Below are positions 1-11,171 of a stretch of DNA of 14,915 nucleotides, piece after piece. Made by a program: the position numbers and the translations under genes. The notes beneath the pieces are model-generated. The model searched no databases. It was not told the origin of the DNA and saw nothing but the letters and a program-made list of their open reading frames with translations. The stretch is from the IMG/VR virus record IMGVR_UViG_2537562091_000005. The stretch is one strand, 5' to 3'. Origin of the DNA: a virus (taxonomy: Duplodnaviria; Heunggongvirae; Uroviricota; Caudoviricetes). Within the stretch, counting starts at the first letter, position 1; each line of letters begins with the position of its first letter.

Positions 1-1236
1 CTACGATAACCGCGCATTCAACATGGCTATCTGTTCGTCGTTCATGTCATCAATCCACATACCGTAAATTTCATACACCATCTGCGCAGTTTCATGCCCC
101 ATTTGGCTGGCTATAAATGCCGGGTTCGCTCCTACCGTCAACAGCCAGCAGGCAAAAGTATGCCGCGTATGGTACGGATTACGGCGGCGAATACCAGCAC
201 GTTTTACTGCTGCATTCCACCTTGCCCCCAAACTGCTTACCGAGTAATAAGGTTTTTGTTTTCCGTTACACACCCTGGGCATGAAAACAAAATGCAGTTT
301 TTGCTTTTCGGTTCTGCCGTACTCCCGATGATAAAAGGTGATTTCGCTTTTGCGATGATGCCCGGTCAGTTTGTATTGCTCCTTCAGTGCTTCAAGAGCA
401 GGCTGCAGTAGTGTTACTGTTCGGATCCCGGCATTTGTTTTTGGGGGACCGAACATATCAAGTATCGTCAGGTTTCTTCTGACATTCACTATTCCCTTTT
501 CGAGATCCACATCCTCCCACGCCAGAGCTGCCAGTTCCCCGTGACGAAGTCCTGAGTAAACGGCAAATTTCCACAAGTTCTGGCTCTGTCCTTTTTCACT
601 TTCCATTAATGCATTGAATTCTGTTTTAGATAACGGATCAGGCTTTATTCTGTTTCGCTGTAATTTTTTTACTCCTTCAAATGGTTTGGTTGATATAAAT
701 CCCGACTGATACGCAAAACGCAACAGCGAACAGAGCAGGGCGATATAGTTATCAACTGTGCGCACGGTTCTTCCTTTTTTGTTGGATCTTGGATTATCCA
801 GGTAAAGCGTTTCTCCATGCAGCAGTTCATTCCGGTAGTTTAAGATATCGCTATAACGAATATGTGATATCGGGGTACTTTCACAAATTATTATTCTGAG
901 TGTTTTTAATTGTGATTTCGTTTTCTTCATTGTGTTTGTTGTTAACTCTGTCTCTTTAATTTTTGTCCAGATATCACAAAGCTCTCCGAACGTTTTTATG
1001 ACTCTCGTTGTCACCATTTTTGCCCCAGTGCTGGACTGGGGAAAACGTCTTAAATACTCAAATTCACCGGAGTTTATTTCATGAACTATCAGCGCTCTTA
1101 AATTTCCGGCCTTTTTAATATTACTGTTTGTAATCTCCCAGCCTTTTAATGTTTCCCGACATCGTTTTCCTCGAAACATGAACCAGATGCGAATGTATCT
1201 ACCTCTAATCTCGACACCTGTTGGTAATTTAGACAT
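1..1236 (-). CDS. intR: Tyrosine-type site-specific integrase (lambdoid, Rac IntR-like), 411 aa
   Basis: Complete minus-strand ORF (ATG at 1236..1234, stop at 3..1). N-terminus MSKLPTGVEIRGRYIRIWF and C-terminal R..H..R..Y catalytic region (HTRHTFACWLL) fit phage integrases; recognised from memory as Rac IntR. Low-GC composition. Start lies 1 nt downstream of the xis stop (coupled int-xis pair). Confidence 0.9.
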   Translation of the reverse strand: MSKLPTGVEIRGRYIRIWFMFRGKRCRETLKGWEITNSNIKKAGNLRALIVHEINSGEFEYLRRFPQSSTGAKMVTTRVIKTFGELCDIWTKIKETELTTNTMKKTKSQLKTLRIIICESTPISHIRYSDILNYRNELLHGETLYLDNPRSNKKGRTVRTVDNYIALLCSLLRFAYQSGFISTKPFEGVKKLQRNRIKPDPLSKTEFNALMESEKGQSQNLWKFAVYSGLRHGELAALAWEDVDLEKGIVNVRRNLTILDMFGPPKTNAGIRTVTLLQPALEALKEQYKLTGHHRKSEITFYHREYGRTEKQKLHFVFMPRVCNGKQKPYYSVSSLGARWNAAVKRAGIRRRNPYHTRHTFACWLLTVGANPAFIASQMGHETAQMVYEIYGMWIDDMNDEQIAMLNARLS

Positions 1237-1237
1237 A

Positions 1238-1453
1238 TCATGAGTCTTTGATAAACTGATTTATCTTTGGATAGTTGTACCAGATAATCCCTCGTTTGCT
1301 GTCTGGCTTACCTAAAGGAGATACTCGTTTGAAGTGGAAGCCCTCCACCCAACAGTTCTGGCGGTATGCTTCAATTTGTCTGGCCCCCAGACCAGTGCGA
1401 AGCATCAGGCCGTATTCAACCATCCACTCTTCATTAAAGATTACTTGTGCCAT
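1238..1453 (-). CDS. xisR: Excisionase-like protein (XisR/YdaQ-like), 71 aa from the ATG with a Shine-Dalgarno (SD); ORF track extends to 1477
   Basis: Small ORF directly upstream of int on the same strand. The second in-frame ATG ([10 protein letters not shown]...) is preceded by GAGGTG with a 5-nt spacer, so I prefer 1453 as the start; the upstream ATG at 1477 has no SD. Position and size match an excisionase. Function is inferred from synteny and memory. Confidence 0.65.
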
Positions 1454-1531
1454 CGCATCACCTCTGGCAGGCGCCAATGTTAGACTGAAATTGACGCCCG
1501 ATGTTGATTATTCATAATCAGCTATGAAGTT

Positions 1532-1741
1532 TTAATTTGAATACAATGCAATTCTCGAGGACTGAAGTTTCTCGCAATTAAAATTTATCAGTTTTACTTT
1601 CTGCTCTCTGGAAACGCCTGCTTCTTTTTTACCTGAGAGCATTTTTTCGCATTCTGATTTCGTTAGTTTAGATTTTGAATATCTTGTCCAGTTAGTAGGA
1701 GTGCCACCTTCCTTTTCAATAGTGGCGGTAATTTTATACAT
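1532..1741 (-). CDS. ydaC: Small prophage protein (YdaC-like, 69 aa), function unknown
   Basis: Minus-strand ORF; the preferred start (MYKITATIEKEGG...) has GGAGG 5 nt upstream, and the longer 93-aa version starts without an SD. The int-xis-ydaC order matches the Rac left arm as I remember it. The symbol rests on synteny, not verified homology. Confidence 0.5.
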   Translation of the reverse strand: MYKITATIEKEGGTPTNWTRYSKSKLTKSECEKMLSGKKEAGVSREQKVKLINFNCEKLQSSRIALYSN

Positions 1742-1995
1742 GAACACCTCCATTATTATTTCCAGTGGTTCGTTTATTCCATCTTTCGAGTGCTTCTTTT
1801 TCACTTCCACCATAACCGGTTCGGGATTCGCATCCGTTACCCTGGAACGCCGTGCATTACTGGCGGCGCAGGAAGCGTTAAGTACGGCAATTGATGCGCA
1901 TGATGATGCAGTCCAAGCCGTTTACCGGAAAGCGCATTTCAGCGGCGGCGGTTCTCCTAGCGATTCTGTCGTAGTGCATTGATTGAAATTAATCG

Positions 1996-2017
1996 TACCG
2001 AACTGTTTTGTTCGGTA
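1996..2017. promoter_or_regulatory. Inverted repeat TACCGAAC-N6-GTTCGGTA upstream of the ydaW-like gene (operator or weak terminator candidate)
   Basis: Perfect 8-bp arms (1996..2003 and 2010..2017) with a 6-nt loop, seen directly. No clean U-run on either strand, so an operator or RNA structure is more likely than an intrinsic terminator. A TTGAAA -35-like hexamer lies at 1984..1989. Confidence 0.3.
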
Positions 2018-2027
2018 TCAGTTAAAT

Positions 2028-2445
2028 GTAACGCTGCGAGCGTTACAAGGTGAAAACAAATGGCTTCAAACTGGATAAAGCTCGAAGTTATTACGCCGGA
2101 TAAGCCGGAAATATTCAGGCTTGCTGAGATTCTGAATATTGATCCAGATGCCGCATTAGGGAAAGTCATTCGCTTCTGGGCATGGGCGGATCAACAAATG
2201 ATAGACGGTAACGCAGAGTGTAACGCTCGCGGCGTTACAAAAAGTGCAATAGATCGCATCACTTTTATGGCTGGTTTTGCTGATGCGTTAATTCAGGTTG
2301 GATGGCTGGTCGAAACTAATGGTGTGTTGTCGCTTCCTAACTTTGAGCGCCATAACGGGAAAAGCTCTAAAAAACGGGCGGTTACAAACGAGAGAGTAAC
2401 AAAAATACGAGAACTGAAACGAAAAGGTAACGCTGCCAGCGTTAC
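2028..2445. repeat. Dispersed family of 19-bp perfect palindromes GTAACGCT-N-AGCGTTAC, each followed by an A-run
   Basis: Seen directly: 2028..2046 GTAACGCTGCGAGCGTTAC; 2220..2238 GTAACGCTCGCGGCGTTAC (extra half-site GTAACGC at 2209..2215); 2427..2445 GTAACGCTGCCAGCGTTAC; degenerate copy GTTAC-N10-GTAAC at 2381..2400. Copy 1 ends 1 nt upstream of the SD of the ydaW-like gene (2047..2053); the others lie inside its coding sequence in the same codon phase (encoding N-A-x-x-V-T-K). Confidence 0.7.
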
Positions 2446-2563
2446 AAAAACGGATCAAAAAGCGTTATCTGCATCATCGTCTGCCTGTCATGGGCTGTTA
2501 ATCATTACCGTGATAACGCCACCGCCTACAAAGAGCAGCGCGACAAAAATGCCAGAGAACTGA
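2060..2563 (+). CDS. Phage protein, YdaW-like N-terminal fragment; last ~30 codons are out-of-frame Rz sequence (pseudogene-like fusion)
   Basis: ATG at 2060 with SD AAGGTGA 6 nt upstream. The N-terminal ~130 aa ([46 protein letters not shown]...) look like a real phage protein, possibly DNA-binding or replication-associated. From about 2461 the ORF reads through the Rz N-terminal region in another frame (ending ...[19 protein letters not shown]), which indicates a deletion fusion. Family assignment is uncertain. Confidence 0.5.
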
Positions 2564-2895
2564 AGCTGGCGAACGCGGCAATTACTGACATGCAGATGCG
2601 TCAGCGTGATGTTGCTGCGCTCGATGCAAAATACACGAAGGAGTTAGCTGATGCGAAAGCTGAAAATGATGCTCTGCGTGATGATGTTGCCGCTGGTCGT
2701 CGTCGGTTGCACATCAAAGCAGTCTGTCAGTCAGTGCGTGAAGCCACCACCGCCTCCGGCGTGGATAATGCAGCCTCCCCCCGACTGGCAGACACCGCTG
2801 AACGGGATTATTTCACCCTCCGGGAACGACTGGTAATGATGCAGGCCCAACTTGAAGGTGCTCAGCAATACATAACCGAACAGTGTTTAAAGTAA
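2464..2895 (+). pseudogene. rzpR: Rz-like inner-membrane spanin gene, 5'-truncated (start and first ~12 codons lost)
   Basis: The frame open from 2431 translates to ...[102 protein letters not shown]..., which I recognise as lambda Rz from its TM segment onward. There is no start codon upstream of the TM segment; the first ATG (2590) gives a 101-aa product lacking the membrane anchor. Confidence 0.8.
2651..2836 (+). CDS. rzoR: Rz1-like outer-membrane lipoprotein spanin (o-spanin), 61 aa, nested in the +1 frame of Rz
   Basis: [24 protein letters not shown]... has a signal peptide with lipobox LVVVGC and a proline-rich mature part ([15 protein letters not shown]), typical of Rz1. SD AAGGAG lies 7 nt upstream of the ATG. 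The embedded arrangement inside Rz is the classical spanin architecture. Confidence 0.85.
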
Positions 2896-2981
2896 AATCT
2901 TAACTACAATATGATTCATTTTGATGATTGTTTCATAAGGAACAGTGAAGTAAGATCTAAGAGGAGTTAAATTTTATACAG

Positions 2982-3015
2982 TATAATCATAATATTGCAG
3001 CAAGGTGGTTATAAT
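2982..3015 (+). promoter_or_regulatory. Putative promoter -10 elements upstream of trkG (TATAAT at 2982..2987 and 3010..3015)
   Basis: AT-rich intergenic region with two perfect TATAAT hexamers; no good -35 match. Pattern-based only. Confidence 0.2.
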
Positions 3016-3032
3016 TGAAAGAATATTTAGAT

Positions 3033-4490
3033 ATGAATACATCTCATGTAAGAGTTGTTACTCATATGTGTGGGTTCCTGGTTTGGCTCTATAGTCTTTC
3101 AATGTTGCCACCAATGGTTGTAGCATTGTTTTATAAAGAAAAAAGCCTGTTCGTTTTCTTTATAACTTTCGTTATATTTTTTTGTATTGGTGGCGGAGCG
3201 TGGTATACAACTAAGAAATCTGGCATTCAATTACGTACCCGTGATGGGTTTATTATAATTGTAATGTTTTGGATTTTGTTTTCTGTTATTAGTGCATTCC
3301 CTTTATGGATTGACTCAGAACTTAATTTAACGTTCATTGATGCTCTGTTTGAAGGGGTTTCTGGAATAACAACAACAGGAGCAACTGTAATTGATGATGT
3401 TAGTTCATTACCTCGGGCATATTTGTACTATCGGTCACAGTTAAATTTTATAGGTGGTTTAGGAGTTATTGTTCTGGCGGTTGCTGTATTGCCATTATTG
3501 GGTATTGGTGGTGCAAAGCTTTATCAGTCAGAAATGCCGGGGCCATTTAAGGATGACAAACTCACTCCCCGCCTGGCCGATACGTCACGGACACTGTGGA
3601 TAACTTATTCTTTATTAGGTATTGCTTGTATTGTCTGTTATAGACTTGCAGGAATGCCTTTGTTTGATGCTATTTGTCACGGGATTTCCACAGTTTCGCT
3701 TGGTGGTTTCTCAACTCATAGCGAGAGTATCGGATATTTTAATAACTATTTGGTTGAGCTGGTGGCTGGTTCTTTTTCCCTGCTATCGGCTTTCAACTTC
3801 ACTCTTTGGTATATTGTTATTAGCAGGAAAACGATAAAACCTTTAATCAGAGATATTGAACTTCGTTTCTTTCTGTTAATAGCCTTAGGGGTGATCATTG
3901 TTACCTCTTTCCAGGTCTGGCATATAGGTATGTATGACTTGCATGGAAGTTTTATTCATTCGTTTTTTCTTGCCAGCTCCATGCTCACTGATAATGGTTT
4001 AGCTACGCAGGATTATGCAAGCTGGCCCACGCACACGATAGTGTTTTTGCTGTTGTCAAGTTTCTTTGGGGGATGTATAGGTTCAACTTGTGGTGGAATT
4101 AAGTCACTTCGATTTCTTATACTTTTCAAACAAAGCAAACACGAGATAAATCAGCTTTCTCATCCCAGAGCGTTGTTGAGTGTAAATGTAGGAGGGAAGA
4201 TAGTTACAGATCGTGTAATGAGGTCTGTATGGAGTTTCTTTTTTCTTTATACTCTCTTCACGGTGTTTTTTATACTGGTGTTAAATGGTATGGGATATGA
4301 TTTTCTTACATCATTTGCAACAGTGGCTGCATGTATTAATAATATGGGATTAGGTTTTGGGGCTACTGCATCGTCATTCGGAGTGCTTAATGACATTGCA
4401 AAATATTTAATGTGCATAGCTATGATTCTTGGTCGCCTTGAAATTTATCCTGTTATTATATTGTTTTCAGGTTTTTTTTGGCGCTCCTAA
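3033..4490 (+). CDS. trkG: Trk-system potassium uptake membrane protein TrkG (prophage-encoded moron), 485 aa
   Basis: Polytopic membrane protein (MNTSHVRVVTHMCGFLVWLYSLSMLPPMVVALFYKEK...) with repeated glycine-rich selectivity-filter-like motifs typical of TrkH/TrkG; recognised as Rac TrkG. Markedly AT-rich relative to neighbours. Start ambiguity: ATG 3033 has no SD, whereas in-frame TTG 3015 is preceded by AAGGTGG at a 6-nt spacing. Confidence 0.9.
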   Translation: MNTSHVRVVTHMCGFLVWLYSLSMLPPMVVALFYKEKSLFVFFITFVIFFCIGGGAWYTTKKSGIQLRTRDGFIIIVMFWILFSVISAFPLWIDSELNLTFIDALFEGVSGITTTGATVIDDVSSLPRAYLYYRSQLNFIGGLGVIVLAVAVLPLLGIGGAKLYQSEMPGPFKDDKLTPRLADTSRTLWITYSLLGIACIVCYRLAGMPLFDAICHGISTVSLGGFSTHSESIGYFNNYLVELVAGSFSLLSAFNFTLWYIVISRKTIKPLIRDIELRFFLLIALGVIIVTSFQVWHIGMYDLHGSFIHSFFLASSMLTDNGLATQDYASWPTHTIVFLLLSSFFGGCIGSTCGGIKSLRFLILFKQSKHEINQLSHPRALLSVNVGGKIVTDRVMRSVWSFFFLYTLFTVFFILVLNGMGYDFLTSFATVAACINNMGLGFGATASSFGVLNDIAKYLMCIAMILGRLEIYPVIILFSGFFWRS

Positions 4491-4576
4491 TATATGGCTG
4501 ATTTATAATTGTGAGTTTAATATTATGTTGACTCACTCATTGATCCAATACCTAACTTTACCAGCAACACCTCCGC

Positions 4577-4610
4577 CCCCAGTAGCACTGGCTGCTGGGG
4601 TGCGTTTTAT
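4577..4610 (+). terminator. Possible intrinsic terminator downstream of trkG
   Basis: CCCCAG (4577..4582) pairs with CTGGGG (4595..4600) around a 12-nt loop, followed by TGCGTTTTATT. The long loop makes it a weak candidate. Confidence 0.3.
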
Positions 4611-4627
4611 TCATAAAGCAAGGATGT

Positions 4628-5419
4628 ATGAGCGAGAAATTAAAGATAGTCTATCGCCCATTACAAGAATTGTCACCGTATGCGCACAACGCCAGGACGC
4701 ACAGCCCTGAGCAGGTGGCACAACTGGTAGAAAGTATTAAGCAATTCGGCTGGACTAATCCGGTGCTGATTGACGAAAAGGGCGAAATTATTGCGGGTCA
4801 CGGTCGTGTTATGGCGGCTGAAATGCTCAAAATGGATTCTGTTCCGGTCATTGTTCTGTCTGGCCTGACGGATGAGCAGAAAAAGGCGTACCGCCTGGCA
4901 GATAATCGCCTGCCGATGAATGCTGGCTGGGATGAAGATCTGTTGCGGATGGAGCTGTCGGACCTAATCAATGCTGATTTTGATGTCTCCCTGACAGGCT
5001 TCATCCCGACAGAAATTGATGAACTGTTGACGGATGTTTTGCCCGGTACAGGAAATGAGGAGGAGCCGTATACGACGAAAATTGATACGCCTGTTTATGA
5101 GCCGTCGGGCGGTAAACCGGATATCAGTGAACTGTACGACGATACGAAAACGCAGGAGCTGATCAGCCGGATACGTTCGGCTTCCCTTGAGCCTGATATT
5201 GAGAAATTCCTCCTGTGTGCGGCAGAACGTCACACGGTGTTTAATTTCAGCAGAATTGCGGACTATTACGCTCACGCCCCCGCTGAAATTCAGTGTTTTT
5301 TCGAGGAGTCGGCGCTGGTGATCATTGATTATCAGCAGGCTATTGAAAATGGATTTGTCCGGATGACGCAGCGCATGGTGGAGATCATGCATGGTGGTGA
5401 GGAGGAGGAATATGCGTGA
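4628..5419 (+). CDS. ParB-like nuclease N-terminal domain protein (ParB/Srx superfamily), 263 aa
   Basis: N-terminal region IVYRPLQELSPYAHNARTHSPEQVAQLVESIKQFGWTNPVLIDEKGEIIAGHGRVMAA fits the ParB N-terminal fold (conserved NAR..S and GHGR motifs), followed by an acidic C-terminal extension. AGGA lies 3 nt upstream of the ATG. No methyltransferase motifs are visible. Confidence 0.7.
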   Translation: MSEKLKIVYRPLQELSPYAHNARTHSPEQVAQLVESIKQFGWTNPVLIDEKGEIIAGHGRVMAAEMLKMDSVPVIVLSGLTDEQKKAYRLADNRLPMNAGWDEDLLRMELSDLINADFDVSLTGFIPTEIDELLTDVLPGTGNEEEPYTTKIDTPVYEPSGGKPDISELYDDTKTQELISRIRSASLEPDIEKFLLCAAERHTVFNFSRIADYYAHAPAEIQCFFEESALVIIDYQQAIENGFVRMTQRMVEIMHGGEEEEYA

Positions 5420-5498
5420 TGATTTTTGCGCCTTTATTCTGACTCACGGGCGACCGGACAAAGTTCTGACTTACCGAACGTTGCGTCGTGCTGGCTAG
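5412..5498 (+). pseudogene. 28-codon gene stub (MRDDFCAFILTHGRPDKVLTYRTLRRAG) with strong SD, likely remnant 5' end of a deleted or frameshifted gene
   Basis: ATG at 5412 is preceded by GGAGGAGGAA and overlaps the ParB-like stop (5417..5419), a coupled arrangement. It stops after 28 codons at TAG 5496..5498. The long capsid ORF is in a different frame. Confidence 0.3.
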
Positions 5499-6544
5499 CA
5501 AAAAACGCAAAAGCTGACGCCGCAGCAAAAGATCAGACGGTAACCGCGCCAGTTGCGCCTGAGGCGAAAACCGAAGATATCGTACCGGGGCCGTCAGCTC
5601 CGAATACCGGTGATCAAAATATTGGCACTGTTGATGTGAAAATTACTAAATCCAAAATGGCACCGGTTAAATGGAATGGTGAAGAACAACTGGCTCTTGG
5701 CCCTTCAGGGACTTACAACACCATTCTGGCTGATCAGTTTAAGCAGGCTTTTCGCGCCCTTGCAAACGAGGTTGAGGCTGATCTTGGTGCGTTGTATTTC
5801 GGTGCTTCCCGCGCCGTGGGAACCGCAGGGACAACGCCGTTTGGTGTTAAAGATGATCTTTCTGATGCTGCTCTGGCTCGTCAGGTTCTGGAGGATAACG
5901 GCGCACCGACAACCGATCTGCAGATGGTGCTTGGCTCCAGTGCCATTGCTAATTTGCGCGGAAAACAGTCTGTACTGTTTAAAGTGAATGAATCCGGCAC
6001 TGAACAGCTACTGCGTGAGGGCGTGTTGGGGCGTCTGGAGGGATTCAATATTCACAGTTCGGCAGGTGTAAAACGAGCGCCAAAGGTTGCTGCAACTGGT
6101 TATCTCGTGAATGGCGAGAAAAAAGAAGGCGATGTTCTTATTTCCATTGATACTGGTTCGGGGAGTATTTCTGCAGGTCAGATTGTTACGTTCGCTGGCG
6201 ATCCGAATCAGTATGTTGTGGCAGCAGCGACCAGCAATCTGATTACTCTTGCAGCGCCCGGACTGCGTCAGGATCTGGCCGATGATACTGCAATCACAGT
6301 TGTTGGCTCCTTTACTGCAAATATGGCGTTTGATCGCAACGCGTTTCTGCTGGCATCCCGTACTCCGGCAATGCCGGAAGGTGGCGATAATGCTGATGAT
6401 GTAATGAATGTTACGGACCCGATTTCAGGGATTACGTTCCAGATTGCACTGTATCGTCAGTATCGCCAGGTGCGCTATGAAGTTGGACTGGCATGGGGTG
6501 TTTCATCAGTGAAGCCGGCACATGGTTGTCTGATTCTTGGTTAA
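5426..6544 (+). CDS. Phage major capsid protein, P22-coat-like family; 5' end appears damaged (no ATG or SD in frame until codon 78)
   Basis: 372-codon frame with segments resembling P22 coat protein from memory (FRALANEVEADLG vs P22 ARKLANNVELKVA; GQIVTFAGD insertion-domain-like region; C-terminal GLAWGVSS). The frame opens at 5423 after a TGA; the only early starts are TTG 5426 (17 nt from the SD) and unsupported GTG 5636 and ATG 5657. Probably a pseudogene or frameshifted gene. Confidence 0.5.
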   Translation: MRLYSDSRATGQSSDLPNVASCWLAKNAKADAAAKDQTVTAPVAPEAKTEDIVPGPSAPNTGDQNIGTVDVKITKSKMAPVKWNGEEQLALGPSGTYNTILADQFKQAFRALANEVEADLGALYFGASRAVGTAGTTPFGVKDDLSDAALARQVLEDNGAPTTDLQMVLGSSAIANLRGKQSVLFKVNESGTEQLLREGVLGRLEGFNIHSSAGVKRAPKVAATGYLVNGEKKEGDVLISIDTGSGSISAGQIVTFAGDPNQYVVAAATSNLITLAAPGLRQDLADDTAITVVGSFTANMAFDRNAFLLASRTPAMPEGGDNADDVMNVTDPISGITFQIALYRQYRQVRYEVGLAWGVSSVKPAHGCLILG

Positions 6545-8363: not shown

Positions 8364-10925
8364 TCAGCTAATCGTGATGCCTGCAGTGGCTTTCTTCATC
8401 ACAACAACCAGCAAATCGCTGATACTTGCTGTGGGATACCAACCATTTACCCACCATGCTGATACAGAAAACTCCAGTGTCATTACGCCACTGCCTGCTG
8501 GCATATCAATAACACCCGTGTAAATCAGAGTATTATCCAGAGCCGTTCGGTTATAAATTTCAGCCCCGTTTTTCTTCACTATCAGGCGGCATGACGAATA
8601 AGTATCGCTATTCTCCCGCTCATGTCTGGCACCGCTGAAAGCCACCGCTGGAATAACAATTTGCCGGTCAAACGGCTGATCGTCATAAACCCTGACGGTA
8701 ATGGTCCCTGATGGCCACCGCTCCGGTGCACGGGAGTCCCGGGGGAAAGCTTTGCCCACTGTTTTAACGAGATCGCCTTCAATCTGGTTCGCGGACAGTT
8801 TTCCCAGAACCCGACAGTTCTCGTTAATCGTGACGTTGTTGAGCGTCCCGGAGTTCGCATTCACGCTACCGCTGATATCGGCATTTTTCGCCGTCAGCCG
8901 CCCGTCCGGTGTCAGGGAAAATGCCGGAGGATTACCGCCGCTGGTAATGGTCGGAGCCGTCAGGCGTTTCAGGAACACGTCGTTCATGAATATCTGATCG
9001 CCCTGACCAACAAACATTGGTCTTGTGTTGCCATTAGACGGATCAATAAACGCGATACGGTTAGCGGCAACCAGGAACTGGCTCAGTTTGCCTTCCTCCG
9101 TATCCTCCATGCTGAGGCCAAGCCCCGCGACATAATGCCTGCCGTCTTCGGTCTGCTCAATTTTGACGCCCCACATGGCATTCCATTTATCGTTGGCGTC
9201 TTTCCACTCTTTCGAAAACTCCTCCAGTTTGCTGGCGTTATCCTCCGTCAGCTCGACTTTTTCCAGCAGCTCATTGCCGAGATGGGATTCGGTTATCTGG
9301 CCTTTGAAAAAATCCAGGTAACCTTCCGCATCATCGCTCGCCCGACCAACAGCCTCCACGAATGCCGATTTGCCGACGGTGTTCACACTGCGGATATAAA
9401 AGTAATAATCACGGCCCGGTTTGATATTGGTACTGGCGGCTATCCAGTACAGCGCCGTGCCAAGATAGCGGGCTGTGGTTTCAACCTGTCTGATATCAGC
9501 AACCCGCTTTTCCGAGAACCAGAACTCAAACTGTACCGTCGGATCATAAACGGCAAGATACGGCGTGGCGGTTATCTGAAAATAGCCCGGCGTCAGCTCA
9601 ATCCGCGACGGTGCTGCCGGTGCGGCAATCCGGAACGATACCGATGCCGGATCGCCCTGCTGTCCCCACGCATTTGCCGCCCGGACTGTCAGCCTGTAGT
9701 TCCCCAGCGCCAGCTGCCTGAAGCGGTATGTGTTTTCCGTCGTCCTGGCCGTGCTGACCAGCCGCTCACTGCCGTCGTCCGCTGCCACGGTCAGGCGAAG
9801 CATAAAGCTCACCCCCTTCACCACCTTCGGCGTGTCCCAGCGCGCCAGCACCTGATATTCCCCGCTGTCTGCGGTGACTTCGGCAGTCAGGTGCTGCACT
9901 GCTGGCGGCGTGACACCATTCACCGTGCCGCTCTGGTCGCCGTCAAAGTGCGCCCCGTTATCCACGATGGCTTCTTTTTCCGGTACATGCTGCACGGCGG
10001 TGATGGCATACGTGCCGTCGTCGTTCTCACGGATACTCACGCAGCGGAACAGGCGCTGGCGCAGCGTCGGCAGCTTCAGCCCCCACACGCTGTATCCGGC
10101 AACGCCGTCAGGAACACGACTCACTTTTACCTTCACGCCGTCGGTGACGGACTGGACCTCCACGCTGACCGGATTGCCACTTCCGTCAACCAGGCTTATC
10201 AGCGTGGTACCGGAGGATGGCAGCGTGATTTCACGGTCGAGCGTCAGCGTCCGGGTCTGGCTGTTCACCGCCAGCACGCGCCCGCCGATGCTGATACCCG
10301 CATAGTCATCATCGCAGATTTCAATGACATCCCCCGGTACATGGCGAAGCCCTTCTGCGCCCACGCTGAAGTCCACGGTCTGCGTTTCCAGCAGCTCCGT
10401 TTTAATCAGCCACAGCCCGGCGCGGTGTGCCTGCCCCCGACTGGTACAGCCAAAGGCATCCATCTTCGTGACGTTACGGCCGTAACGGGCAATGGCCTGC
10501 GTATCCTCCACGAGCTCTGTCGCCGTCTCCCAGCCGTTATCCGGGTCAATCCAGTTCACCTCAACGGCATTATGGCGGTCCTTCAGGGCGCTGAAGCTGT
10601 AGCGGAACGGCGCGCCATCATCCGGCATCACCACATTACTGCGGTTATAGGTCCACACCTTATCCGACGGTCGGTCCTGCACGAACGTCAGCGTCTGCCC
10701 GTTCCATACCGGCATACAGCGCATCGCCGAGCAGAAATCACTGAGCACATCCCACGCCTTGCGCTGTGTGGTCAGCCAGGCATTACAGGTAATGCGCGGC
10801 TCCGTGCCGCCAAAGCCGTCCGGCACTGACTGGTCGCAGTACTGGCCGATGACATACAGCGCCCATTTGTCCACATCCGCCGCACCAAGACGTTTCCCCA
10901 TGCCGTAGCGCGGGTGGGTCAGCAT
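8364..10925 (-). pseudogene. Lambda J-like host-specificity / tail-tip protein, N-terminally truncated and inverted relative to lom and stf
   Basis: From [50 protein letters not shown]... to the C-terminus the translation closely matches lambda gpJ as I recall it, including FN3-like repeats and the C-terminal receptor-binding region. About 280 N-terminal residues of a ~1130-aa J are absent. The ORF-track extension to 11030 (GTG start, 35 non-J codons) is antisense to lom and has no SD. Confidence 0.8.
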
Positions 10926-11171
10926 ATGGCTTACAGCCGAGTGTCGACCTTCTCCGGGGATTATCTCCGCGTAACTGACAACAAGGGGAAAACGCACGAT
11001 GTGCTGACCGGAAGTGATGACGGTCGCCACAGCAATACGTCTCTGGCGTGGGGGGCTGGCGTGCAGTTTAACCCGACCGAATCCGTGGCCATTGATATTG
11101 CTTATGAAGGCTCCGGCAGTGGTGACTGGCGCACTGACGGTTTCATCGTGGGTGTCGGTTATAAATTCTGA
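10926..11171 (+). pseudogene. lom (Ail/Lom family outer-membrane protein) 3' fragment, last ~81 codons only
   Basis: C-terminus ...[43 protein letters not shown] matches the Lom/Ail beta-barrel C-terminus with terminal Phe. The signal peptide and N-terminal two-thirds are missing. Confidence 0.8.

What the first reader, a model, noticed from the sequence alone, without database searches (positions are those of the whole stretch)
4628..5419. Orphan ParB-like nuclease-domain gene between the trkG moron and the decayed head genes
ParB N-terminal-domain proteins at the lysis-packaging boundary of lambdoid phages are usually fused or paired with a DNA methyltransferase or other partner. Here the protein has only a ParB-like N-domain plus an acidic, uncharacterised C-terminal half, and its downstream partner appears reduced to a 28-codon stub. 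The stand-alone protein's activity is an open question.
Basis: partly seen in the sequence, partly recalled or inferred. Interest (0 to 1): 0.4.

Follow-up and report, generated by a model that had tools for sequence, protein, structure and literature searches.

The report
Orphaned ParB partner of phage glycosyltransferase
This gene is the full-length form of the E. coli Rac-prophage gene ynaK, a ParB-like nucleotide-binding protein that in intact phages always sits next to a glycosyltransferase gene; here a 7-kb deletion removed that gene, so ynaK is a leftover of an untested phage modification system.

Summary
Window 4628-5419 (+) is an intact 263-codon ORF with a ParB/Srx N-domain. A 28-codon stub of the next gene follows it.

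- **Identity.** It is full-length ynaK of a Rac-type prophage. K-12 keeps only 87 codons.
- **Lost partner.** An intact Rac prophage shows the partner is a 310-aa TAGT-family ("GREB1-related") GT-A glycosyltransferase. A 6,979-bp deletion runs from TAGT codon 28 into the coat gene and also removes terminase, portal and scaffold genes.
- **Linkage.** This domain occurs only beside Rac-type TAGT: 28 of 28 phage records and 77 of 77 assessable genomes across many phyla and archaea. The genes usually overlap and lie directly upstream of the terminase genes.
- **No precursor enzyme.** No TET/JBP dioxygenase or hydroxymethylase was recognised in the seven genomes or loci examined.

Best reading: YnaK is the NTP-binding accessory of a late-expressed two-gene glycosylation module, like the ParB activators of phage thymine dioxygenases. 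In this window it is a recent relic. The ynaK gene was already known. The ParB-TAGT module is an experimentally untested variant, and its acceptor is unknown.

The parts
4628..5419 (+). ynaK, full-length form (263 codons plus stop): a ParB/Srx-type protein of a Rac-type prophage
   Evidence: ORF. It is 100% identical at the DNA level to intact Rac-like prophages. Residues 1-86 are 98% identical to K-12 YnaK.
4628..4927 (+). Residues 1-100: ParB/Srx nucleotide-binding domain. Pocket residues are N21-x-R23, S36, G57-x-x-R60 and D92-N93.
   Evidence: Pfam ParB_N. pLDDT about 90. Foldseek hits to CTP-ParB, Noc, KorB and Srx. Residue conservation across 59 diverse members: N21 100%, S36 92%, G57 98%, R60 86%, D92 90%, N93 100%.
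4928..5038 (+). Residues 101-137: helical segment after the nucleotide-binding domain. No helix-turn-helix DNA-binding domain is detected here.
   Evidence: Helices 103-115, 120-123 and 127-134 at pLDDT about 80-88. No HTH Pfam hit. TIGR00180 scores 38.4 bits, below its cut-off of 58.45.
5039..5119 (+). Residues 138-164: disordered acidic linker carrying the conserved motif Y148-T-x-K-I-x-x-P155-x-Y157-E-P
   Evidence: pLDDT below 50 over residues 136-164. Y148, P155 and Y157 are conserved in at least 95% of 59 diverse members.
5120..5416 (+). Residues 165-263: conserved helical C-terminal domain. It is found only next to Rac-type TAGT genes, and the ...SALVIID... motif is nearly invariant.
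5412..5498 (+). Stub of the partner gene: codons 1-28 of a TAGT-family glycosyltransferase, followed by a stop codon made by the deletion junction
   Evidence: Identical to L001 10013-10098. The intact 310-aa product matches Pfam TAGT PF20691 at E=3e-35 and PHROG 842 at E=7e-104.
5496..5497 (.). Deletion junction with 2-bp TA microhomology. Relative to an intact Rac-like prophage, 6,979 bp are missing: the rest of TAGT, a 69-aa gene, TerS, TerL, portal, minor head protein, scaffold and the first 31 codons of the coat gene.
   Evidence: Base-by-base comparison with L001. Gene list of L001. The junction is absent from 5,426 complete E. coli genomes and from all loci fetched up to (L001-L173).
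5498..6544 (+). 5'-truncated major capsid (P22 coat-like) gene
   Evidence: PHROG 283 'major head protein' E=9e-126, with the match starting at profile position 31. Aligns to L001 from position 17078 onward.
4577..4600 (+). Terminator-like hairpin with a T-rich tail between trkG and ynaK. No promoter-like site lies between the two genes.
   Evidence: 10-pair stem, 7 G-C pairs, tail TGCGTTTTAT.
3033..4490 (+). trkG moron, the upstream neighbour
   Evidence: 100% identical to the annotated trkG of L001.

Best explanation
Window 4628-5419 is the intact form of ynaK from a Rac-type lambdoid prophage. YnaK is a four-part protein. It has a ParB/Srx nucleotide-binding domain, a short helical segment, a disordered acidic linker with a conserved Y-T-x-K-I-x-x-P-x-Y-E-P motif, and a family-specific helical C-terminal domain.

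In intact phages ynaK is the first gene of a two-gene cassette. The second gene, usually overlapping its stop codon, encodes a TAGT-family GT-A glycosyltransferase. The cassette lies at the head of the packaging operon, directly upstream of the terminase genes.

Proposed mechanism (inferred, not shown):
1. YnaK binds an NTP and associates with DNA as a ParB-type clamp or loader.
2. Its C-terminal domain, and possibly the linker motif, recruits or activates the cognate TAGT enzyme.
3. Replicated phage DNA is thereby glycosylated late in infection, just before or during packaging, which would protect it in the next host.

This parallels the ParB proteins that activate cognate phage thymine dioxygenases on double-stranded DNA.

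In this window a 6,979-bp deletion has removed TAGT beyond codon 28 and all packaging genes. Other deletions have removed the late promoter and Q region. YnaK is therefore a recently orphaned and probably poorly expressed relic with nothing to activate.
For: SHOWN
- Identity and synteny: trkG-ynaK as in Rac, and 98% identity to K-12 YnaK over residues 1-86.
- ParB/Srx fold.
- NTP-pocket residues are conserved across 59 diverse members.
- The partner is TAGT. It carries GT-A-type R...DDxD...DDD...EDxxxY motifs, which resemble the R...DDD...EDY/F motifs of phage DNA GT-A enzymes and JGT described in bioRxiv 10.1101/2023.12.21.572611.
- The TAGT family contains a T6-type second glucosyltransferase assigned to acting on glucosyl-hmC DNA (PMC13390438).
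- The C-terminal domain is strictly coupled to TAGT. In the phage collection, 28 of 28 records with the domain have TAGT immediately downstream, while the N-domain alone occurs in 521 records. In species-representative genomes, 77 of 77 assessable loci have TAGT downstream on the same strand, and in 65 of them the genes overlap (median -10 nt).
- The pair sits directly upstream of TerS, TerL and portal whatever the terminase family.
- Among non-enterobacterial members, the C-terminal domain and TAGT are equally conserved (median 49% identity to the E. coli proteins). The N-domain is less conserved, at 41%.
- Deletion anatomy.
- Loss of Q, holin and lysozyme, and a terminator-like hairpin before ynaK.
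- ynaK is not maintained on its own. It is present in 1,559 of 5,426 complete E. coli genomes but at 80% length or more in only 946. Dozens of distinct truncation or fusion variants exist, with breakpoints between residues 93 and 201.

FROM THE LITERATURE
- Phage ParB proteins with the architecture NBD, helical segment, roughly 50-aa unstructured linker and CTD, and no DNA-binding domain, activate cognate 5mYOX thymine dioxygenases on dsDNA. [quoted passage not shown]
Against: - No TET/JBP dioxygenase and no thymidylate-synthase-type hydroxymethylase was recognised in any genome or locus examined. These were the whole 31.8-kb genome of Lactobacillus phage c5, the whole annotated Rac-like prophage, and five loci with Pfam-annotated neighbours. 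The known acceptor for DNA glycosyltransferases, a 5-hydroxymethyl-pyrimidine or a sugar already attached to one, therefore has no evident source. DNA as the target is inferred from family membership only.
- The eukaryotic TAGT homologue GREB1 glycosylates a protein (PMC7968844).
- No interaction between YnaK and TAGT was tested. NTP binding was not tested.
- In the published ParB-5mYOX system, mutating NTP-pocket residues did not abolish activation. A clamp cycle is therefore unproven even there.
- The YnaK C-terminal domain shows no detectable similarity to known ParB dimerisation domains.
Confidence: 0.55

Rival explanations
1. The YnaK-TAGT pair glycosylates a protein rather than DNA. Candidate acceptors are YnaK's own conserved Y-T-x-K-I-x-x-P-x-Y-E-P linker, a packaging protein such as terminase or portal, or a host protein. 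YnaK would then be a substrate or adaptor rather than a DNA-loading factor.
For: - No hydroxymethyl-pyrimidine-forming enzyme accompanies the pair.
- The eukaryotic TAGT homologue GREB1 O-GlcNAcylates a protein (PMC7968844).
- A conserved Tyr/Thr-containing motif sits in an otherwise disordered linker next to the glycosyltransferase gene.
- The pair is constantly adjacent to terminase genes.
Against: - The only phage TAGT member with an assigned function is assigned to DNA, as the second glucosyltransferase of T6-type phages.
- The YnaK N-domain is the module that phages fuse to DNA methyltransferases.
- ParB-type partners of DNA dioxygenases are the closest functional precedent.
- A ParB nucleotide-binding domain has no obvious role in protein glycosylation.
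Confidence: 0.17
2. YnaK has an activity of its own that does not need TAGT. It could be a ParB/Srx-fold nuclease or NTPase, or a host-affecting factor, and the intact ORF would be kept in this defective prophage because it benefits the host.
For: - The ORF is intact although its partner is gone.
- In an overexpression screen, the 87-aa K-12 fragment raised the MIC of six antibiotics 3-6 fold, and the gene is reported as induced by kanamycin and ciprofloxacin (PMC12924614).
- Databases label the domain 'ParB-like nuclease'.
Against: - The ORF is 100% identical in DNA to copies in intact prophages. Its intactness therefore reflects a recent deletion, not selection.
- About 40% of E. coli genomes carrying ynaK have it truncated, at many different points.
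- The late promoter region is deleted and a terminator-like hairpin precedes the gene.
- There is no match to any defence-system protein apart from the methyltransferase N-domain.
- Overexpression phenotypes of a small nucleotide-binding fragment can be non-specific.
- Outside E. coli, the C-terminal domain was never found in a genome without TAGT beside it.
Confidence: 0.12
3. YnaK is a conventional ParB: a centromere-binding partition protein, or a KorB-like transcriptional regulator of the prophage.
For: - ParB/Srx fold with a conserved NTP pocket.
- Weak matches to ParB, Noc and PRTRC-ParB models.
- Some sources name relatives 'transcriptional regulator' or 'partitioning protein'.
Against: - No helix-turn-helix DNA-binding domain.
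- TIGR00180 scores far below its cut-off, 38.4 against 58.45 bits.
- No parA gene is present in any neighbourhood examined.
- The element integrates with an integrase rather than replicating as a plasmid.
- The gene lies in the late packaging operon and is invariably coupled to a glycosyltransferase.
Confidence: 0.04
4. The ORF is a C-terminally truncated ParB-methyltransferase fusion.
For: The N-terminal ~140 residues are 45-53% identical to N-domains of phage ParB-methyltransferase fusions.
Against: - Full-length relatives of 250-290 aa end at the same position in enterobacteria, Firmicutes, Bacteroidota, CPR bacteria and a halovirus.
- Residues 140-263 form their own conserved domain with no methyltransferase similarity.
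Confidence: 0.01

Closest known systems
[quoted passage not shown]
   Same: Same locus (trkG-ynaK), same prophage type, and 98% identity over residues 1-86.
   Different: The K-12 copy is cut to 87 aa by a different deletion and is followed by the coat remnant ydaY. The window's copy is complete at 263 aa and is followed by a 28-codon stub of the partner gene.
ParB-type activators of phage thymine dioxygenases (ParB176/5mYOX176; O'Toole et al., PNAS 2026, PMC13229309)
   Same: - Architecture: nucleotide-binding domain, short helical segment, roughly 50-aa unstructured linker and C-terminal domain, with no helix-turn-helix.
- Conserved N-x-R, S and G-x-x-R pocket residues.
- Encoded next to a cognate enzyme of a DNA-modifying family, in phage genomes, often near terminase genes.
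   Different: - The partner is a TAGT glycosyltransferase, not a dioxygenase, and no dioxygenase is nearby.
- The C-terminal domain is specific to TAGT pairs.
- Sequence relatedness to ParB176 could not be tested because the sequences are not held.
- No activity has been tested.
Phage ParB-domain DNA methyltransferase fusions (PHROG 498; PADLOC MTase_II model; surveyed in PMC12704722)
   Same: The N-terminal ~140 residues are homologous (E=1e-50, 45-53% identity). The genomic position, just before the packaging genes, is the same.
   Different: YnaK has no methyltransferase domain. The enzyme is a separate, translationally coupled gene of a different class.
TAGT family (PF20691): T6-type second glucosyltransferase of T-even phages, and eukaryotic GREB1
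   Same: The lost partner gene belongs to this family, with E=3e-35 over 205 of 205 profile positions.
   Different: - T-even TAGT enzymes act on glucosyl-hydroxymethylcytosine made by a dedicated pathway and have no ParB partner.
- Rac-type TAGT forms a separate subgroup found in only 36 of 50,697 phage records, none of them from T-even phages, and is always paired with YnaK-type ParB.
- GREB1 glycosylates a protein.
Chromosomal and plasmid ParB CTPases (Spo0J, Noc, KorB)
   Same: Fold of the N-domain and its nucleotide-pocket motifs.
   Different: No HTH domain, no ParA partner, no known parS site, and a different C-terminal domain.

Membership tests
ParB/Srx superfamily (Pfam ParB_N, PF02195) | Sequence match to the family model above the curated cut-off | tested here: met
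   28.9 bits against a cut-off of 26.3, E=1.2e-6, residues 23-90. PHROG 620 E=1e-90.
ParB/Srx superfamily (Pfam ParB_N, PF02195) | ParB/Srx fold | tested here: met
   In the AF2 model the N-domain has pLDDT of about 90. Foldseek probability is 1.0 to CTP-ParB, Noc, KorB, PadC, sulfiredoxin and serine kinase.
ParB/Srx superfamily (Pfam ParB_N, PF02195) | Nucleotide-pocket motifs (N/Q-x-R, G-x-x-R, D/E-N) | tested here: met
   N21 100%, R23 81%, G57 98%, R60 86%, D92 90% and N93 100% across 59 diverse members.
ParB/Srx superfamily (Pfam ParB_N, PF02195) | Binding or hydrolysis of an NTP | not testable with these tools
   Requires a biochemical assay such as DRaCALA, as used in PMC12704722.
Canonical partition ParB (ParABS) | Helix-turn-helix DNA-binding domain and full-length model match | tested here: not met
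   No HTH Pfam hit. TIGR00180 scores 38.4 bits against a cut-off of 58.45, and only over residues 11-94.
Canonical partition ParB (ParABS) | Adjacent parA gene | tested here: not met
   No ParA-type gene in the window or in any related locus examined.
ParB-type activators of phage DNA-modifying enzymes (PMC13229309) | Architecture of NBD, helical segment, unstructured linker and CTD, with no DNA-binding domain | tested here: met
   Model segments 1-100, 103-134, 136-164 (pLDDT below 50) and 165-255. No HTH.
ParB-type activators of phage DNA-modifying enzymes (PMC13229309) | Cognate DNA-modifying enzyme encoded alongside | tested here: inconclusive
   In intact relatives a TAGT glycosyltransferase always follows. 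It is not a 5mYOX dioxygenase, its action on DNA is inferred only, and in this window only 28 codons of it remain.
ParB-type activators of phage DNA-modifying enzymes (PMC13229309) | Partner enzyme depends on the ParB protein for activity on dsDNA | not testable with these tools
   Needs co-expression and nucleoside LC-MS.
ParB-methyltransferase fusion proteins | DNA methyltransferase domain in the same polypeptide | tested here: not met
   Matches to methyltransferase families cover only the N-domain, residues 3-144. Residues 140-263 have no methyltransferase similarity.
TAGT glycosyltransferases (PF20691), for the downstream stub | Complete GT-A catalytic domain | tested here: not met
   The intact orthologue matches TAGT over 205 of 205 profile positions. 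The window keeps codons 1-28 only and loses the DDxD, DDD and ED motifs.
Anti-phage defence systems (PADLOC) | Match to a defence-system component model | tested here: not met
   Only the N-domain of a type II methyltransferase model matches YnaK. TAGT has no match.

The most novel reading that the evidence does not exclude
The YnaK-type ParB plus Rac-type TAGT cassette could be a self-sufficient two-gene glycosylation system. It is carried just upstream of the terminase genes by temperate phages of at least ten bacterial phyla and of archaea. It would act on an acceptor other than 5-hydroxymethyl-pyrimidine. Candidates are a canonical DNA base or the DNA ends made at packaging, or a protein such as YnaK's own conserved Y-T-x-K-I-x-x-P-x-Y-E-P linker or the packaging motor. 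Either case would be a new kind of phage DNA or protein modification, and it would be present in about one in six E. coli genomes.
Probability: 0.25. Interest if true: 0.8.

Novelty: new variant of a known kind. Interest (0 to 1): 0.42.

Why it matters
For this window the result is ordinary. It is a named cryptic-prophage gene, ynaK, left without its partner by a deletion.

The value lies in what the relic points to:
- **What the C-terminal half is for.** It is a partner-specific domain that marks a strictly conserved ParB-glycosyltransferase cassette.
- **How widespread the cassette is.** It occurs in phages of many bacterial phyla and of archaea. About 16% of complete E. coli genomes carry both genes at near full length.
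- **What is unknown.** The cassette has never been tested, and it lacks the enzymes that normally make the acceptor base for DNA glycosyltransferases.

If the pair does modify DNA, it would extend the recently shown principle that ParB-like proteins activate phage DNA-modifying enzymes from dioxygenases to glycosyltransferases. It would also reveal a hidden DNA modification in common lambdoid prophages, with consequences for restriction, defence evasion and sequencing. The experiment is easy in E. coli.

Tried and rejected
- **Truncated methyltransferase fusion.** Rejected. Relatives end at the same point and share a conserved C-terminal domain.
- **Canonical partition ParB.** Rejected. There is no HTH, no ParA, and the score is below the family cut-off.
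- **Defence-system component.** No PADLOC match beyond the methyltransferase N-domain.
- **TET/JBP or hydroxymethylase partner.** None was recognised in the whole phage c5 genome, in the Rac prophage annotation, or in five Pfam-annotated loci. The bulk scan of 141 neighbouring ORFs lists only the top 25 families, so a single weak hit there cannot be excluded.
- **Same deletion junction elsewhere.** Not found in 5,426 complete E. coli genomes or in any of the loci fetched up to (L001-L173). Strain A10 looked at first as if it shared the right-hand junction, but it has an independent deletion that keeps 60 bp more of the coat gene.
- **Iyer et al. 2013 paper on TAGT.** Not held in the library. 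Whether it already describes ParB-TAGT pairs could not be checked.
- **ParB176 sequences.** Not available for direct comparison.
- **ParB-TAGT fusion proteins.** None seen among the 120 best TAGT relatives.
Full report
**1. The observation**

Window 4628-5419 (+) is an ATG-to-TGA ORF of 263 codons. Pfam ParB_N matches residues 23-90 above the curated cut-off (28.9 against 26.3 bits, E=1.2e-6). PHROG 620 matches the whole protein (E=1e-90). An AlphaFold2 model built from 30 relatives gives the N-domain a pLDDT of about 90. Its best Foldseek matches in the PDB are nucleotide-bound ParB, Noc, KorB, PadC and sulfiredoxin.

A second ORF starts at 5412 and overlaps the stop codon (ATGCGTGA). It runs for 28 codons. 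The description in the finding is therefore correct.

**2. What the locus is**

Megablast against 5,426 complete E. coli genomes places the region in Rac-type prophages, with the order trkG then ynaK. In K-12 the same gene, ynaK (b1365), is only 87 codons long. It is 98% identical to residues 1-86 of the window's protein.

A much more complete Rac-like prophage (strain EC1722-1, locus L001) has the following order: lysis genes, trkG, ynaK (263 aa), 'GREB1-related protein' (310 aa), a 69-aa gene, TerS, TerL, portal, minor head protein, scaffold and coat. On its other side are the usual Rac early genes and intR next to ttcA.

The window is 100% identical to L001 from 2464 to 5497. It then resumes inside the coat gene. 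Base-by-base comparison shows the following:
- The junction has 2 bp of microhomology (TA, 5496-5497).
- 6,979 bp are lost.
- The stub's stop codon TAG is created by the junction.
- The first 31 codons of the coat gene are gone.

This junction was not found in any complete E. coli genome or in any of the loci fetched up to (L001-L173). Strain A10 has a different, independent deletion.

The rest of the window is equally decayed. It contains intR and xis, half of a replication-initiator gene, the tail end of Rz, connector genes, a J fragment in inverted orientation, and tail-fibre genes. The Q antiterminator, the late promoter region, holin and lysozyme are all missing. A terminator-like hairpin (4577-4600) lies between trkG and ynaK, with no promoter-like site after it.

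**3. The lost partner**

The 310-aa product matches Pfam TAGT, 'TET-associated glycosyltransferase' (PF20691), at E=3e-35 over the whole profile. It also matches PHROG 842 at E=7e-104.

Its sequence carries the motifs THGRP, VVDDED, QLDDDY and NEDVNTY. This is the R...DDD...EDY/F pattern described for phage GT-A-like DNA glycosyltransferases and for the base-J glucosyltransferase (bioRxiv 10.1101/2023.12.21.572611). The TAGT family includes the enzyme that T6-type phages are thought to use to add the second glucose to glucosyl-hydroxymethylcytosine (PMC13390438). It also includes eukaryotic GREB1, which glycosylates a protein (PMC7968844).

**4. The C-terminal half**

Thirty enterobacterial relatives (54-86% identical) show that the second half is at least as conserved as the first. 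Features include a motif P-Y-T-x-K-I-D-T-P-V-Y-E-P-S and a block FLLxAAERHTVFNF..IADYY...Q.LFEESALVIIDY..AIE.GF.

The full-length model leaves residues 136-164 disordered. A model of residues 140-263 built from 35 diverse sequences gives a helical core with pLDDT above 90.

This domain matches nothing described:
- A profile search of PDB sequences found nothing significant.
- Pfam scans of 37 members found nothing.
- Foldseek against viral models found only two homologues, one of them a stand-alone 130-aa protein.

An exhaustive HMMER search found 2,260 cluster representatives with E below 1e-30. Among the best 150, most non-E. coli hits are proteins of 250-290 aa aligned end to end. All of these carry the domain at their C-terminus.

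**5. The domain marks a ParB-TAGT cassette**

In the phage collection (50,697 records) the N-domain matches 521 records, many of them annotated as DNA methyltransferases. Residues 140-263 match only 28 records. Every one of these 28 is among the 36 records that contain a Rac-type TAGT, and the TAGT gene lies immediately downstream. The 28 include Lactobacillus phages c5, phiLdb and phi-jlb1, Nocardia phage NTR1, six large Vibrio phages and the archaeal virus HHTV-2.

A scan of one genome per species returned 80 loci. They come from Proteobacteria, Bacteroidota, Firmicutes, Verrucomicrobiota, Kiritimatiellia, Acidobacteriota, Chlorobi, Actinobacteria, CPR bacteria and a Methanosphaera MAG. TAGT is found downstream on the same strand in 77 of them. 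The other three contigs end at the ParB gene. In 65 of the 77 the two genes overlap (median -10 nt).

Against the E. coli proteins, non-enterobacterial members are 49% identical in the C-terminal domain and 49.5% in TAGT. They are 41% identical in the N-domain and 36-37% in the helical segment and linker.

The cassette lies directly upstream of TerS, TerL and portal whatever the terminase family. Examples are the Yersinia and Serratia prophages, three metagenomic phages with lambda-type or HK97-type terminases, phage c5 where it is ORF1-ORF2 next to cos, and a bulk scan of 141 neighbouring ORFs in which terminase and portal families dominate.

**6. What is absent**

No TET/JBP dioxygenase and no thymidylate-synthase-type hydroxymethylase was recognised in any of the following:
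- the complete c5 genome, where the 25 best-scoring families are listed and everything unlisted has E above 3e-4;
- the annotated Rac prophage;
- the five loci with Pfam-annotated neighbours.

Only the two genes are conserved across the loci.

**7. How it most likely works**

The nucleotide-pocket residues of ParB CTPases are conserved in 59 diverse members: N21 100%, R23 81%, S36 92%, G57 98%, R60 86%, D92 90% and N93 100%.

The closest functional precedent is the 2026 report on phage ParB proteins (PMC13229309). Those proteins have a nucleotide-binding domain, a short helical segment, a roughly 50-aa unstructured linker and a C-terminal domain, with no DNA-binding domain. They are required for cognate thymine dioxygenases to act on double-stranded DNA. 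Both terminal domains are needed, and pairs are cognate-specific. An earlier proposal that ParB proteins direct modification enzymes during packaging is cited in PMC8256090.

On this basis I infer that YnaK is the nucleotide-binding accessory that brings or activates TAGT on replicated phage DNA late in infection. The C-terminal domain, and perhaps the linker motif, would serve as the partner-specific interface. The steps stand as follows:
- **Shown:** fold, conserved pocket, strict gene coupling, position in the packaging operon, and family of the partner.
- **Inferred:** NTP binding, DNA association, physical contact with TAGT, and DNA as the substrate.

The main weakness is the missing source of an acceptor base. 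The possibility that the pair glycosylates a protein or an unconventional DNA position is therefore kept as the chief rival and as the most novel reading.

**8. State of the gene in this window**

The ORF is identical in DNA to copies in intact prophages, so the deletion is recent and intactness says nothing about selection.

Across complete E. coli genomes the counts are as follows:
- ynaK DNA is present in 1,559 genomes.
- ynaK is at 80% length or more in 946 genomes.
- TAGT is at 80% length or more in 869 genomes.

The exhaustive search also shows dozens of distinct truncated or fused E. coli variants, with breakpoints between residues 93 and 201. The gene therefore decays freely once the prophage is defective.

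One paper reports that overexpressing the K-12 fragment raises the MIC of six antibiotics 3-6 fold (PMC12924614). This is the only hint of a stand-alone effect, and it may be non-specific.

**9. Comparison and novelty**

The gene itself is known and named. The ParB/Srx assignment is standard annotation. A general link between ParB proteins, glycosyltransferases, terminases and phage DNA hypermodification has been noted in surveys.

This analysis adds four things:
- the identity of the lost partner;
- the definition of the C-terminal half as a TAGT-specific domain with no described relative;
- the strictness and breadth of the ParB-TAGT cassette;
- the absence of any recognised precursor-forming enzyme.

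I could not read the 2013 paper that defined TAGT, so part of this may already be in print. I rate it a new variant of a known kind, of moderate interest. The window's copy is a relic, but the family it belongs to is a tractable open problem.

Noticed in passing
window 8364-11030 (-) and 9135-10829 (+): A fragment of the J tip-attachment gene lies on the minus strand, while all other late genes are on the plus strand. It carries Phage-tail_3, Ig_J, Phage_Tail_Tip and Ig_GpJ_C domains but lacks the N-terminus. This implies an inversion plus deletions next to a truncated tail-terminator gene. The 564-aa ORF on the opposite strand has no family match and looks like an antisense shadow ORF.
   Followed up: partly
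window 1-2895: intR and xis (minus strand) are followed directly by the N-terminal half of a YdaU-like replication initiator (2060-2563) and the C-terminal part of an Rz spanin (2590-2895). The whole early region, Q, the late promoter, holin and lysozyme have therefore been deleted.
   Followed up: partly
window 4577-4600: A terminator-like hairpin (10-pair stem, T-rich tail) lies just after the trkG moron and 27 nt before ynaK. No promoter-like site follows it.
   Followed up: partly
window 5069-5104 (YnaK residues 148-159): A short motif, Y-T-x-K-I-x-x-P-x-Y-E-P, is conserved in at least 95% of diverse family members at Y148, P155 and Y157, inside an otherwise disordered acidic linker. It could be a docking peptide or a glycosylation acceptor site.
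   Followed up: partly
E. coli ynaK variants: There are dozens of distinct truncated or fused ynaK products in E. coli, with breakpoints between residues 93 and 201. Some are fused to Lom, tail-fibre or terminase fragments. The ynaK-to-head region of Rac is therefore a frequent site of independent deletions.
   Followed up: partly
K-12 ynaK (L003 7378-7641): A 2026 overexpression screen singled out the 87-aa K-12 YnaK fragment as raising the MIC of six unrelated antibiotics 3-6 fold (PMC12924614).
   Followed up: no
L086 7198-7815 (Serratia) and protein P0357: In some relatives a Methyltransf_23-type methyltransferase lies immediately upstream of the ParB gene or is fused to its N-terminus. 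It may be a third component of the cassette in those lineages.
   Followed up: no
L110, L123, L136, L143, L163: In five of the 77 loci, 0.5-1.7 kb separates the ParB gene from TAGT, which suggests an inserted gene. The content was not examined.
   Followed up: no
BFVD entry A0A516LIZ0: A 130-aa viral protein consists of the YnaK-type C-terminal domain alone (48% identity). The domain can therefore exist as a separate polypeptide.
   Followed up: no
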